From positions 1-64,000 of the IMG/VR virus record IMGVR_UViG_3300010430_000020: a stretch of DNA of 64,000 nt; one strand, 5' to 3'. Below are positions 1 to 2,308 of the stretch, one piece after another. The DNA comes from a virus. Under the pieces are notes generated by a model. It saw nothing but the letters and a program-made list of their open reading frames with translations, was not told the DNA's origin and did not search any database. Made by a program: the position numbers and the translations under genes. How positions within the stretch are numbered: the first letter of the stretch is position 1; each line of letters begins with the position of its first letter.

Positions 1-58
1 CGACCTGATCCCGGACCTGAACCCAGACCTGACTCCTGACCTGATTCGCGACTACCAT
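1..58 (-). CDS. RYYxW-array member 8 (truncated at window edge), [19 protein letters not shown]...
   Basis: ATG at 58-56 overlaps the stop of the previous member; QV[R/W]x repeats; runs off the window. Confidence 0.75.
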   Translation of the reverse strand, partial: MVVANQVRSQVWVQVRDQV

Positions 59-234
59 TTGTAATATCTCATACAGGTTAAGTTCAGATTCCGAAAATCA
101 TTTTCTCGTTGCCGCCGCCAAATCACCACTTGAACATTTTGCTCAACAGCGAAATCTGGATTGATCAGGCGGCCCACATCTTTAAGCCAAAGATCGTTTC
201 GAATACTATTAAGTATATGATACAAATTCACCAT
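52..234 (-). CDS. RYYxW-array member 7 (60 aa, ends RYYKW)
   Basis: ORF track; conserved junction at both ends. Confidence 0.8.
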   Translation of the reverse strand: MVNLYHILNSIRNDLWLKDVGRLINPDFAVEQNVQVVIWRRQRENDFRNLNLTCMRYYKW

Positions 235-416
235 TTGTAGTACCTTAACACGGTATCCTGGATTTGATCAATGAATCGATCCCCTAGCAGATCATCGTCA
301 ACTCGATCCCAAGTTTGACCCTTGACTTGAGATCGGACTCGAATACCGACTTGAGATCGGAGTTGAACACCGGCTCGAATACCGACTTGATCAAAGACTT
401 CCCCAAAATTCACCAT
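228..416 (-). CDS. RYYxW-array member 6 (62 aa, MVNFGEVF...RYYKW)
   Basis: Start placed at junction ATG 416 rather than 473; degenerate QV repeats. Confidence 0.8.
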
Positions 417-595
417 TGATAGTACCTGTTCTGACCATTCTCGACCTGATCCCTGATCTGATGCCAGACCCAAACCCCGACTTGACTCCTGACCTGAACC
501 CAGACCTGACTCCTGATCCGAAAACAGACCTGACTCCTGACCTGAACCCAGACCTGACCCCTAACCTGATCCTCGACTTGGTGAAAATCTACCAT
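410..595 (-). CDS. RYYxW-array member 5 (61 aa, QV[R/W]x repeats, ends RYYQW)
   Basis: ORF track; conserved junctions. Confidence 0.8.
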
Positions 596-780
596 TCGTA
601 ATACCTACTCTGAGTATCCGCGACCCGATCCCTGACCTGATCCCTGAATTGATTCCAGACCTGATCCCTGACCTGATCCTTGAACTGAAGCATGTTCCAG
701 ACCTGACTCCTGACCAGATTCCAGACCTGATCCCTGACCTGAATCCTGACCTGATGCTCGACCTGATCCTCGACTTGGCG
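440..780 (-). repeat. Degenerate 12-nt tandem repeat (CAGGTCHGGNNT) encoding Q-V-[R/W]-x
   Basis: Visible as gacctga/cctgac periodicity on the + strand; also at 1-45 and degenerate at 300-395. Confidence 0.9.
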
Positions 781-792
781 AAAATCTACCAT
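589..792 (-). CDS. RYYxW-array member 4 (67 aa, QVRD/QVWN repeats, ends RYYEW)
   Basis: Start placed at junction ATG 792 rather than 861. Confidence 0.8.
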
Positions 793-1007
793 TTGTAGTA
801 CCTCGCCACTGACCTGCAGGTACCGACACAGGCGGTCGCTGAGCGTGCGAGTTTCAGCCAATCGGAACGATCTAAATTATTCACAATCCATTTCTGCATT
901 TTGTTTCGTATTTGTTTGAATAGAAACAGTGCATGGTCCGCCATCCAATACGATCCATAACATAAATACCGCCGAAAAATAGGGGGTTTATATTTTTTCA
1001 TCACCAT
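786..1007 (-). CDS. RYYxW-array member 3 (73 aa, ends RYYKW)
   Basis: ORF track; conserved junctions. Confidence 0.78.
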   Translation of the reverse strand: MVMKKYKPPIFRRYLCYGSYWMADHALFLFKQIRNKMQKWIVNNLDRSDWLKLARSATACVGTCRSVARYYKW

Positions 1008-1165
1008 TTGTAATACCTTAACTCGGTATTCAACTGTCGCGCTTGGAGGACGACACTATTTAATCCTGTCTCAATTTCAAGCTTTACATCTAGAGTTCGT
1101 CCTAATACTTCCTCACTACGTAAAGTATGAGCAAAATGATACATGAGATTACCCAATTTCACCAT
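1001..1165 (-). CDS. RYYxW-array member 2 (54 aa, MVKLGNLMYH...TELRYYKW)
   Basis: Translated by hand (below track cutoff); open from junction ATG 1165 to junction TGA 1001. Confidence 0.78.
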   Translation of the reverse strand: MVKLGNLMYHFAHTLRSEEVLGRTLDVKLEIETGLNSVVLQARQLNTELRYYKW

Positions 1166-1296
1166 TTGTAGTACCTGTTCAAATTATGCCATGTGTAAGT
1201 CTTAGCATCAATGCTCGGAGCTTGATCTGTTATTTGCCAGACGCAACTCACGATTTGACCTATCAAATGAAACCTAATTTTGTACAGATTTATCAT
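1159..1296 (-). CDS. RYYxW-array member 1 (45 aa, MINLYKIRF...NLNRYYKW)
   Basis: Translated by hand; ATG 1 nt after the stop of the sulfotransferase-like gene. Confidence 0.75.
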   Translation of the reverse strand: MINLYKIRFHLIGQIVSCVWQITDQAPSIDAKTYTWHNLNRYYKW

Positions 1297-1297
1297 A

Positions 1298-1855
1298 TCA
1301 AAATTTTACCGTTGAGGGCCTGAACCATTCTTTAGGCAACGGAGCGCCGACGATCTCTTCCAGCGCCTGGATATCGATGGTCTTACCGAATTTCCATACC
1401 GGCCAACCATACAGGATATGCAAATCTCTTATACGCTCCTGTCCCCTCCTGGCAAGCTCGAATGCATCACCACGCCCGAACCTATTAGCTATGGACTTGC
1501 CGTTAGCAACATGGTCTCGGGAGACCAGAAGGGGCTCCACCTCAGCTGTAACTAGCGTCTCGGGCTCCCAGAGCAGGTGCCACGCGATTTTAACAACGCA
1601 GCGGTCATACCCCTTGGCAGATGCTTCTACCCTGTACTCATCGAAATATGAGCGTCTGAGGGCCAATTCATCATCAGTTGGTCGCTCGGTCGGTTCATGC
1701 CAAAGAGACGACTTGTATAAACAAGCCGCCTTCTGATCTTCAAAAAACCTATCGTCGTTTTTTCTATTGTAGAATCCGTTCTTAGTCAGTATACCCGCAG
1801 TAGCAGATGTGCCGCCGCCGGGCATACCTAGAACGAATGTTAGGCGGGCAGTCAT
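1298..1855 (-). CDS. Sulfotransferase-family / P-loop fold protein
   Basis: N-terminal FVLGMPGGGTSATAGIL plus FFED resembles the bacterial sulfotransferase GMHRSGTS...FFED pattern; canonical RS is replaced by GG. Confidence 0.55.
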   Translation of the reverse strand: MTARLTFVLGMPGGGTSATAGILTKNGFYNRKNDDRFFEDQKAACLYKSSLWHEPTERPTDDELALRRSYFDEYRVEASAKGYDRCVVKIAWHLLWEPETLVTAEVEPLLVSRDHVANGKSIANRFGRGDAFELARRGQERIRDLHILYGWPVWKFGKTIDIQALEEIVGAPLPKEWFRPSTVKF

Positions 1856-1856
1856 G

Positions 1857-2264
1857 CTAGTCCAGCATATTCAGCAAACCTAAATCCAGAGCTTCTACTG
1901 GATAGGCATTTATAGTATCTGTCCACTTCTTAAATTCCTCCGGCGATGATACCTTAACAACCTCATAATTAAGATTCTTACAATACGCTATCATCTTAAA
2001 CCCGAGTCGCGTCGTACCGCGAAATGGATCATCCAGTGTATTTAGATAAGCCTTGGCATTCACTGCCAGATAATGGACGATTGTATCGTACCCATCCGGA
2101 ACATCCTCGGACTTGAAATCGGATACATTGATATTTGCTGAAATCCAATCGACCATTTCATTCGTGCGATGGCGCATATCTTCATAGTCTTCGCAACGAA
2201 GAGCATTTATACAATCTTGGATTACATCCGATAAGAAATCCTGCAGTTCAACTCTATTTTCCAT
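1857..2264 (-). CDS. hypothetical protein
   Basis: Start placed at MENRVE (GGAG upstream), because the longer ORF runs through a terminator. Confidence 0.7.
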   Translation of the reverse strand: MENRVELQDFLSDVIQDCINALRCEDYEDMRHRTNEMVDWISANINVSDFKSEDVPDGYDTIVHYLAVNAKAYLNTLDDPFRGTTRLGFKMIAYCKNLNYEVVKVSSPEEFKKWTDTINAYPVEALDLGLLNMLD

Positions 2265-2278
2265 TTCTCGCTCCAAAG

Positions 2279-2308
2279 AAAAAAAGGGGGAGGATTTTAC
2301 CCCTCCCC
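2279..2308 (-). terminator. Intrinsic terminator
   Basis: GGGGAGGGG-TAAAA-TCCTCCCCC followed by T7 on the minus strand. Confidence 0.8.

What the first reader, a model, noticed from the sequence alone, without database searches (positions are those of the whole stretch)
1..1296. Array of at least 8 translationally coupled mini-ORFs; all 7 complete members end in RYY[K/Q/E]W-stop
Seen: seven complete ORFs of 45-73 aa plus one truncated member are chained head to tail. Each junction is one 18-nt element that encodes R-Y-Y-x-W-stop of the upstream ORF, places an AGGT SD-like element (6 of 7 copies) and encodes M-V of the next ORF through a 7-nt overlap. The copies are AGA TAT TAC AAA TGG TAG, AGG TAC TAC AAA TGG TGA (twice), AGG TAC TAT CAA TGG TGA, AGG TAT TAC GAA TGG TAG, AGG TAC TAC AAA TGG TAG and AGG TAT TAC AAA TGG TGA. 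Apart from the x position, differences are synonymous (AGA/AGG, TAT/TAC, TAG/TGA, the last keeping Val in the other frame), while ORF bodies are nearly unalignable. This points to selection on the C-terminal peptide. Inference: a diversified peptide library with a shared C-terminal tag (docking, sorting or modification), for example anti-defence or host-takeover effectors, with junctions also serving as recombination points for cassette gain and loss. Two members are missed by the 60-aa ORF cutoff. I do not recognise this architecture as a described system.
Basis: partly seen in the sequence, partly recalled or inferred. Interest (0 to 1): 0.88.

Follow-up and report, generated by a model that had tools for sequence, protein, structure and literature searches.

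The report
Capped repeat mini-gene array in phage
A marine-sediment T4-like phage carries at least 13 tiny back-to-back genes that are free-standing, fast-changing copies of a four-residue repeat normally built into an unstudied phage protein (DUF6745); all end in Arg-Tyr-Tyr-x-Trp and sit just behind a tyrosine-sulfotransferase-like gene, but their function is unknown.

Summary
Seven complete mini-ORFs and one cut one lie on the minus strand of 1-1296. The 18-nt junction occurs 7 times here and nowhere else in the 79-kb record. A second contig (L116) overlaps window 1-127 exactly and adds six members, giving 13 ending RYY[K/Q/E]W.

The bodies are not unalignable. They are paralogs built from a [DNS]QV[WRG] tetrapeptide repeat. 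An exhaustive profile search shows this repeat is the internal tract of hundreds of DUF6745 proteins, which sit in prophage early regions in the three genomes checked.

I found five other viral contigs with similar capped, coupled mini-gene arrays, each beside a repeat-less DUF6745 gene. The scan has also reported this class on other DNA. No paper in the searched library describes it.

Special here: the Tyr-Tyr-x-Trp cap varies only synonymously (P about 4e-4). No DUF6745 gene is visible in 72 kb. The gene directly upstream folds like tyrosylprotein sulfotransferases (Z 11.9).

The Arg codon and the Trp-stop are largely explained by the SD and the start/stop overlap. The Tyr-Tyr conservation is not.

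Function is unknown. Counter-defence is suggested only by analogy with Tweety gp54, and tyrosine sulfation is an untested lead.

The parts
1159..1296 (-). Mini-gene 1 (45 aa, starts MINLY, ends RYYKW). Its ATG lies 1 nt after the stop of the upstream enzyme gene.
1001..1165 (-). Mini-gene 2 (54 aa, diverged non-repeat member, ends RYYKW)
786..1007 (-). Mini-gene 3 (73 aa, diverged non-repeat basic member, ends RYYKW)
589..792 (-). Mini-gene 4 (67 aa, QV-tetrapeptide repeat member, ends RYYEW)
410..595 (-). Mini-gene 5 (61 aa, QV-tetrapeptide repeat member, ends RYYQW). Strain variant P0079 has a different repeat number and ends RYYKW.
228..416 (-). Mini-gene 6 (62 aa, partly repeat, ends RYYKW)
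52..234 (-). Mini-gene 7 (60 aa, non-repeat, ends RYYKW). Strain variant P0002 differs at 5 residues and keeps the same tail.
1..58 (-). Start of mini-gene 8 (57 aa in full). It is completed on L116 8659->8486. Five more members follow on the L116 minus strand, down to 7549.
1159..1176 (-). Junction module: last five codons plus stop of one gene, the SD (AGGT), and ATG-GTR of the next. Identical modules lie at 1001-1018, 786-803, 589-606, 410-427, 228-245 and 52-69.
443..769 (.). 12-nt tandem repeat tracts (443-569 and 622-769, also 2-45 and 324-372). Unit GACCTGATCCCT on the + strand, which reads [DS]QV[RWK] on the minus strand.
1298..1855 (-). 185-aa gene with a sulfotransferase fold closest to tyrosylprotein sulfotransferases. 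P-loop GMPGGGTS, invariant K89, and R113-x7-S121.
1857..2264 (-). 135-aa gene of unknown function and first gene of the unit. Its stop lies 1 nt before the enzyme's ATG. The pairing is conserved in relative L256.
2287..2308 (-). Terminator-like hairpin plus T-run that closes the upstream DUF932 gene and precedes the unit.

Best explanation
This is a tandem array of at least 13 translationally coupled mini-genes; 7 complete and 1 cut lie in the window. They are free-standing, capped copies, or diverged derivatives, of the [DNS]QV[WRG] tetrapeptide tract that phage and prophage DUF6745 early proteins carry internally.

Each junction is an 18-nt dual-coded module. The last five codons of one gene (Arg-Tyr-Tyr-x-Trp) contain the Shine-Dalgarno (AGG-T) and the spacer of the next gene. 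That gene's ATG-GTR overlaps TGG-stop, so a terminating ribosome re-starts in place.

Shown or supported here: the one member modelled, a repeat-type member, is predicted with modest confidence to be a single long helix. Strain variants differ in their repeat tracts but keep both termini, and environmental contigs break synteny at a junction. I read this, by inference, as change by repeat-unit slippage and by cassette exchange at the junctions. Arg, Trp-stop and Met-Val are largely forced by the RBS and the overlap. The Tyr-Tyr and the polar x are additionally held by selection on the peptide.

Inferred only: the cap is a common handle for one shared partner. The array is a diversified library used in phage-host conflict, by analogy with the repeat-tunable counter-defence protein Tweety gp54 and with arrays in other phages that sit beside a repeat-less DUF6745 scaffold.
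For: Coding and coupling: 7 motif copies against 0.22 expected; spacing 2 mod 3 at all 12 junction intervals; each body open in 1-9% of shuffles; AGGT is 2.3-fold enriched before this phage's gene starts, and no other gene pair of at least 100 aa has a 7-nt overlap.

Paralogy.

Link to the DUF6745 tract: 404 hits at E<=1e-3 and 83 at E<=1e-10. The ten long hits put through Pfam are 310-567 aa, and nine carry PF20530. The M. abscessus prophage gp38 also carries it. Context is a prophage early region in Paraburkholderia and Ruegeria as well.

Same architecture elsewhere: L316, L338, L309, L310 and L321 hold capped QV mini-genes. In L316 and L338, whose junctions I read, the SD lies inside the cap codons and the stop overlaps ATGA. 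Each of the five sits beside a DUF6745 gene with zero repeat tetrads.

Peptide-level constraint on the cap: conservation begins exactly at the Arg codon; all 4 synonymous change types are seen against 2 of 29 non-synonymous (P=3.7e-4); one environmental member uses CGG for Arg.

Plasticity: strain variants P0004 and P0079 keep both termini but change the repeat tract. X3 contig record 10 matches 88-244 with 2 mismatches and then diverges at the junction, while the window arrangement coexists in the same run. Four new C-termini end [R/K]YYKW.

Helix model: (pLDDT 69).

Tweety gp54 function: PMC9262239 and PMC2884959.
Against: There is no expression or protein evidence. No DUF6745 N- or C-domain gene is visible in the 64-kb window, in the 79-kb record or on L116, unlike the five other arrays. 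The record is only about 44% complete, so this does not show absence. Caps of other arrays differ and vary non-synonymously, so a cap function is not general. Tweety gp54 is not a DUF6745 protein, so the functional analogy is loose. Similarity of low-complexity repeats can inflate E-values. The join to L116 rests on a 127-nt identical overlap plus one environmental contig.
Confidence: 0.6

Rival explanations
1. Sulfated-peptide (RiPP-like) unit. The TPST-like enzyme encoded directly upstream O-sulfates a tyrosine of the RYYxW cap on all array products. The cap would be the enzyme's recognition and modification site, and the variable helices would be the cargo.
For: The enzyme's stop lies 1 nt before the first array ATG, with no terminator between them. 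A confident model (pLDDT 86) has its three best matches in an exhaustive fold search to tyrosylprotein sulfotransferases: Z 11.8-11.9, 171-173 of 185 residues aligned, best kinase 10.3. The Atlas gives TM 0.80 to Sulfotransfer_3 clusters. The family has an invariant R-x7-S 3'-PB-type motif, an invariant K89, and E39 conserved in at least 90% of members. Both the Tyr-Tyr cap and this enzyme neighbour are found only in this array among those examined.
Against: The P-loop GMP[GS]GGTS has no basic residue, and PMC6637879 lists such a residue as essential in sulfotransferases. Pfam and the PDB sequence profiles give no match. TPSTs tie with a non-protein sulfotransferase at Z 11.2. Homologs at 36-38% identity are not followed by arrays. 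From general knowledge, known Tyr-sulfation sites are acidic, whereas this cap is basic. No leader or export genes were seen, and none were looked for.
Confidence: 0.18
2. The junction is a pure nucleic-acid module, serving as RBS, re-initiation signal and recombination site. The RYYxW peptide would be an incidental translation of it, kept uniform by gene conversion.
For: AGG is the SD, and TGG-TRR is forced by ATG-G plus the overlapping stop. Other arrays place an AGG/AAG codon at the same position but have unrelated caps. Synteny breaks fall at the junction.
Against: Spacer bases A5, T7, A8 and A11 are invariant in 13 copies, and positions 6 and 9 vary only C/T. Every variable site upstream of the x codon is synonymous, including AGG->CGG, which weakens the SD but keeps Arg. 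No conserved RNA structure is present.
Confidence: 0.15
3. The array is the decayed remnant of one long DUF6745-type repeat gene, broken by frameshifts.
For: The tetrapeptide is the same as in the long proteins.
Against: Every break is the same 18-nt module with an SD and an ATG. Every interval shifts the frame by the same amount. Non-repeat members carry the caps too. No DUF6745 N- or C-domain flanks the array.
Confidence: 0.03
4. The region is a non-coding repeat region (iterons or an origin), or is coded on the plus strand as PDL[ITN] repeats.
For: Both strands are open in the 12-nt repeat tracts, and plus-strand ORFs also end in the junction.
Against: No plus-strand ORF of 25 aa or more lies between about 830 and 1185, where the minus-strand chain continues. 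The QV reading frame is the one used by hundreds of long proteins. All neighbouring genes are on the minus strand.
Confidence: 0.02

Closest known systems
DUF6745 (Pfam PF20530) phage and prophage proteins with an internal x-Q-V/L-x tetrapeptide tract, e.g. Mycobacterium phage prophiGD102-1 gp38
   Same: The [DNS]Q[VL][WRG] tetrapeptide is the same, with W/R/G alternation. The proteins are phage-borne and lie in early or accessory regions.
   Different: Those are single proteins of 350-590 aa with an N-domain and a C-terminal DUF6745 domain. Here there are 45-73-aa stand-alone proteins with their own caps and no such domains. No paper in the searched library mentions DUF6745.
Arrays of detached tetrapeptide-repeat mini-genes beside a repeat-less DUF6745 gene. 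No paper found; seen here in L316, L338, L309, L310 and L321, and reported by earlier agents of this scan on other DNA.
   Same: Tandem coupled mini-genes with array-specific fixed N- and C-caps. In L316 and L338 an Arg/Lys codon five residues before the stop acts as the SD and the stop overlaps the next ATG.
   Different: The overlap is 7 nt rather than 4. Several members have lost the repeat. No DUF6745 scaffold is visible within 72 kb. A TPST-like gene heads the unit.
Mycobacteriophage Tweety gp54 (with Che8 gp57 and PMC gp51)
   Same: A phage early protein with a tetrapeptide repeat (W/G alternation) whose repeat number varies between strains. Changes in repeat number tune escape from the Phrann gp29/gp30 defence (PMC9262239, PMC2884959).
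   Different: It has AA[GWQ][SY] repeats inside one 374-aa protein with unique terminal domains, and gives no DUF6745 match. It is an analogue, not a relative.
PeSL cassette boundaries of T4-like hyperplastic regions (Comeau et al. 2014, PMC4122927)
   Same: Short repeated boundary elements between small accessory genes of T4-type phages. They end in an SD plus a start codon and are associated with cassette gain, loss and replacement.
   Different: PeSLs are intergenic and consist of a stem-loop plus a sigma-70-like promoter. This junction is 18 nt, lies inside coding sequence, and has neither.
RaxST/RaxX tyrosine-sulfated peptide of Xanthomonas, and animal TPSTs
   Same: A TPST-fold enzyme gene lies next to short peptide genes that carry a conserved tyrosine.
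   Different: No leader, protease or transporter genes were seen (none searched for). There are 13 or more substrates rather than one. The sequence context of the Tyr is basic. The P-loop lacks the essential basic residue. No biochemical evidence exists.

Membership tests
PeSL (promoter-early stem-loop) cassette boundary | Intergenic element between small ORFs | tested here: not met
   The junction lies wholly inside overlapping coding sequence.
PeSL (promoter-early stem-loop) cassette boundary | Sigma-70-like -35/-10 promoter preceded by a stem-loop | tested here: not met
   No promoter-like or terminator-like site lies at any junction. The RNA folds are inconsistent, with z from -2.5 to +0.5.
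PeSL (promoter-early stem-loop) cassette boundary | SD and start codon of the downstream gene at the 3' end; association with indels or replacements | tested here: met
   AGGT-N7-ATG is present. A synteny break falls at the junction in run X3.
DUF6745 (PF20530) tetrapeptide-tract proteins | C-terminal DUF6745 domain | tested here: not met
   No Pfam hit. A custom domain HMM finds nothing in the window or L116 but scores E 1e-62 to 1e-70 in the five control loci.
DUF6745 (PF20530) tetrapeptide-tract proteins | Conserved N-terminal domain of about 90 aa | tested here: not met
   The N-domain HMM gives no hit in the window or L116, and hits in the five control loci.
DUF6745 (PF20530) tetrapeptide-tract proteins | Internal x-x-Q-V tetrapeptide tract | tested here: met
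   The family profile matches the tracts of long proteins down to E 1e-28.
Detached tetrapeptide mini-gene arrays (split DUF6745 systems; no paper found) | Tandem coupled mini-genes with fixed caps; SD inside the cap codons; stop overlapping the next ATG | tested here: met
   for this array; for L316 and L338.
Detached tetrapeptide mini-gene arrays (split DUF6745 systems; no paper found) | Adjacent repeat-less DUF6745 scaffold gene | tested here: inconclusive
   None is found in the 79-kb record or on L116, but the record is about 44% complete.
Tweety gp54-type repeat-tunable counter-defence protein | Unique N- and C-terminal domains flanking the repeat within one protein | tested here: not met
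   The mini-proteins have only 4-6-residue caps.
Tweety gp54-type repeat-tunable counter-defence protein | Repeat number or content varies between strains | tested here: met
   P0004 and P0079 compared with their window and L116 counterparts.
Tweety gp54-type repeat-tunable counter-defence protein | Inactivates a host or prophage defence | not testable with these tools
   Needs infection assays, and the host is unknown.
PAPS-dependent sulfotransferase (the 185-aa upstream gene) | Sulfotransferase fold | tested here: met
   Z 11.8-11.9 to TPST1, TPST2 and tick TPST, and 11.2 to the OLS sulfotransferase domain; kinases score 10.3 or less. Atlas TM 0.80.
PAPS-dependent sulfotransferase (the 185-aa upstream gene) | Basic residue in the 5'-PSB loop (PMC6637879) | tested here: not met
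   The loop is G-M-P-[GS]-G-G-T-S in 22 sequences, with no K or R.
PAPS-dependent sulfotransferase (the 185-aa upstream gene) | Invariant Ser of the 3'-PB motif (R-x7-S) | tested here: met
   R113 and S121 are invariant in 22 sequences.
PAPS-dependent sulfotransferase (the 185-aa upstream gene) | His or Glu catalytic base between the two motifs | tested here: inconclusive
   E39 is at least 90% conserved, but no residue-level structural alignment could be made.
RaxX/RaxST-type sulfated RiPP | Leader peptide with a double-glycine site, and a peptidase-transporter | not tested
   No shared leader is evident in alignment A1. Transporter genes were not searched for.

The most novel reading that the evidence does not exclude
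A phage-encoded, TPST-like sulfotransferase modifies the Tyr-Tyr cap of a library of 13 or more hypervariable helical mini-proteins. This would be the first viral tyrosine-sulfated peptide system. It would also be a variant of the detached DUF6745-repeat arrays in which an enzyme, rather than or in addition to a scaffold, reads the common cap.
Probability: 0.18. Interest if true: 0.9.

Novelty: new variant of a known kind. Interest (0 to 1): 0.7.

Why it matters
Tetrapeptide-repeat phage proteins have one studied example, Tweety gp54, in which repeat number tunes escape from a bacterial defence. DUF6745 proteins with QV tracts matched my profile in hundreds (404 at E<=1e-3), yet no paper in the searched library mentions them.

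Arrays in which the repeat is split off as many separately translated, rapidly shuffling mini-genes suggest a way for a phage to present many alternative helices from one locus. This array adds two testable handles. One is a cap under demonstrable peptide-level selection. The other is an adjacent enzyme whose nearest solved folds sulfate tyrosines.

The array is also a clean natural example of a dual-coded junction, in which protein tail, RBS and start/stop overlap share 18 nt and appear to serve as a cassette boundary.

Tried and rejected
- Pfam and PHROGs on all seven mini-ORFs gave nothing.
- The exact junction pattern in IMG/VR gave 115 loci, but only L116 is an array.
- A looser two-junction pattern was too noisy.
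- A strict two-junction pattern in the metagenome contigs gave 0 matches.
- The word-indexed protein search with the family profile found only four strain variants.
- Enzyme relatives: none close in IMG/VR. Homologs at 36-38% identity have no array downstream. The 74% relative L256 ends inside the enzyme gene.
- The 17 loci with DUF932 relatives hold no array.
- Complex prediction on the enzyme plus the 45-aa member gave no verdict, so it counts neither way.
- No RNA holder was listed among the sequencing runs.
- PDB sequence-profile searches with A3 and A5 gave nothing.
- Foldseek alone could not separate kinase from sulfotransferase.
- The Atlas search on the 135-aa gene gave no usable hit. 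Pfam on the L116 flanking genes gave nothing.

Ideas rejected:
- Programmed frameshifting into one polyprotein: there is no slippery heptamer, and each unit has its own SD and ATG.
- An OMP beta-signal or DegS-type Y-x-F tail: I saw no signal peptide on reading the sequences.
- The cap as a vestige of the GW[LI]SFY.[FY]F motif that opens the DUF6745 domain: the pattern is similar, but the caps of other arrays do not fit.
- The X3 loose end at place 585, which I first read as a cassette in a new position: it lies on a contig with 14 mismatches in 92 nt, so it is probably the L116 paralog mapped onto the window. The short-sided joints 803->1154/1155 are likewise ambiguous.
Full report
**Observation.** The minus strand of window 1-1296 holds a head-to-tail chain of ORFs: 1296->1159 (45 aa), 1165->1001 (54), 1007->786 (73), 792->589 (67), 595->410 (61), 416->228 (62), 234->52 (60), and a cut eighth member at 58->1. 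Every complete member ends R-Y-Y-[K/Q/E]-W-stop. The pattern AGRTAYTAYNAATGGTRR matches seven times, all here, against 0.22 expected by chance, and no shuffle reaches 7. It is absent from the rest of the 79,148-bp virus record of which the window is bases 1-64000. All junction spacings are 2 mod 3, and each ORF body stays open in only 1-9% of shuffles. No plus-strand ORF of 25 aa or more lies between about 830 and 1185.

**Extension.** The array sits at the contig end. One IMG/VR contig, L116 (8,728 bp), matches window 1-127 at 100% over its last 127 bases. It continues the chain with six more members ending RYY[K/Q/E]W. After them comes an 82-aa ORF that starts at the last junction but lacks the cap. 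An environmental contig (X4) also links a junction to window 1-43 through a shorter repeat tract, which supports the join. The array therefore has at least 13 capped members. Contigs from other sediment metagenomes add four further distinct C-termini, ending KKYYKW, TRYYKW (with CGG for Arg), IRYYKW and DRYYKW.

**What the members are.** The bodies are not unalignable. All start M-V/I-[DNK]-[FL] and have a hydrophobic residue every fourth position. About half consist of 12-nt tandem repeats that encode [DS]QV[RWK]. The word-indexed search found only strain variants. The exhaustive profile search found 404 proteins at E<=1e-3 and 83 at E<=1e-10. Nearly all of those listed are long proteins of 350-590 aa that match the repeat body, not the tail, several times each. 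Their architecture is an N-domain, a long [DNS]QV[WRG] tract and a C-terminal DUF6745 (PF20530) domain. None of the listed long hits ends YYxW. Such genes lie in prophage early regions. In M. abscessus prophiGD102-1 the gene (a QL version) lies in the early region with the ERF and RepA-like genes. In Paraburkholderia it lies among RecT, exonuclease, HNH and integrase genes, and in Ruegeria next to DNA methyltransferases. No paper in the searched library mentions DUF6745.

**A recurrent class.** After I had found the DUF6745 link, the scan's notes showed that earlier agents had reported detached tetrapeptide mini-gene arrays on other DNA. I tested this on loci that I fetched myself. Of 80 viral loci with DUF6745 relatives, five carry QV mini-genes with array-specific N-caps (MKLKSV, MKSLR and others) and C-caps (RTIHR/KTLHQ, RNALI/RDILK and others). 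These are L316, L338, L309, L310 and L321, and the first two hold long arrays. In L316 and L338 the junctions use the same logic as here: an AGG/AAG codon five residues before the stop serves as the SD, and the stop overlaps ATGA. Each of the five sits directly beside a DUF6745 gene that has both domains but no repeat tetrads. In about 2 Mb of other phage loci, my cap detector found nothing comparable.

**What is special here.**
- *The cap.* Conservation begins abruptly at the first base of the Arg codon. In the 11 nt before the ATG, the six change types seen include all four possible synonymous types and only two of 29 non-synonymous types, both in the x codon (P=3.7e-4). AGG->CGG keeps Arg while weakening the SD. 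AGG-T as the SD, the ATG, and the overlapping stop explain Arg, Trp-stop and Met-Val, but they do not explain the invariant A5, T7, A8 and A11. No RNA structure is shared between junctions, and there are no promoter or terminator signals at them. The Tyr-Tyr and the polar x are thus held at the peptide level in this lineage, whereas the caps of other arrays vary non-synonymously.
- *No visible scaffold.* No DUF6745 N- or C-domain gene is visible in the record or on L116. The record is only about 44% complete.
- *The upstream gene.* The gene whose stop lies 1 nt before the first array ATG belongs to a family without Pfam coverage. Its confident model (pLDDT 86) has its three best matches, in a search of 48,161 chains, to tyrosylprotein sulfotransferases. 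These score Z 11.8-11.9 with 171-173 of 185 residues aligned; the OLS sulfotransferase domain scores 11.2 and kinases 10.3 or less. The Atlas comparison agrees. The family keeps an R-x7-S motif, an invariant K89 and a conserved E39, but its P-loop GMP[GS]GGTS lacks the basic residue that PMC6637879 lists as essential. Homologs at 36-38% identity have no array downstream. The 74% relative L256 keeps the same gene order but ends inside the enzyme gene. No such enzyme lies near the other arrays.

**Plasticity.** Strain variants keep both termini while the repeat tract changes in content or length (P0004, P0079). In run X3 one contig matches 88-244 with two mismatches and then continues with unrelated sequence exactly beyond the junction, while another contig in the same run shows the window arrangement. 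Other loose ends probably include paralogs mapped at 85% likeness, so I count them only as additional family members.

**Mechanism.** Shown or supported: coding, the coupling geometry, paralogy, the origin of the repeat, peptide-level constraint on the cap, and a synteny break at a junction. Predicted: a single long helix for the one member modelled (pLDDT 69). Inferred: the cap is a common handle for a shared partner, either an unseen DUF6745 scaffold or the adjacent enzyme. Also inferred is that the array is a diversified library used in phage-host conflict. The only experimental anchor for that is Tweety gp54, whose repeat number tunes counter-defence (PMC9262239, PMC2884959). Tweety gp54 is an analogue, not a relative.

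**The phage.** This is a distant T4-superfamily member. Its gp43 is 46% identical to those of cyanomyoviruses, and the window carries its replication module. Parts of the stretch are held by sediment and reef metagenomes; marine sediment runs from three studies (X1, X3, X4) were confirmed by laying contigs.

**Verdict.** The finding is real and statistically solid. It is a distinctive member of a class for which I found no published description.

Noticed in passing
window 1298-1855 (-); alignment A5: The 185-aa gene belongs to a family of proteins of about 185-220 aa found only in metagenomes and viral contigs so far (more than 20 members in the search). It has no Pfam model but a TPST-like fold and the motifs GMP[GS]GGTS, K89 and RDPxxxxxS. 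It looks like an unannotated sulfotransferase-like family that lacks the usual P-loop basic residue.
   Followed up: partly
L256 2143-2625 and protein P0006: Two independent contigs of a relative about 75% identical both end inside the enzyme gene, at residues 159-162 and about 70 nt before the place where the array starts here. Assemblies seem to break just ahead of this locus.
   Followed up: no
L116 7307-7555 (-) and 7030-7395 (-): The ORF that starts at the last junction (82 aa, MVKPK...) lacks the RYYxW cap and overlaps the next 121-aa ORF by 89 nt. The true end of the array and its gene calls are unclear.
   Followed up: no
L316 8910-12268 and 16419-18334; L338 12839-14129: These are large arrays of QV mini-genes with two alternating cap types (RTIHR and KTLHQ in L316). 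They flank a repeat-less DUF6745 gene (L316 9674-10606).
   Followed up: partly
window 416-601 (+), 649-798 (+): The complement of the repeat tracts is also open and reads PDL[ITN] repeats that end in the junction. This is a mirror effect of the 12-nt repeat and could mislead gene callers. Public gene calls such as P0035 and P0001 also start members too early, at upstream codons.
   Followed up: yes
window 1857-2264 (-): The 135-aa first gene of the unit has no detectable family or fold, but it is conserved next to the enzyme in relative L256 (149 aa).
   Followed up: partly
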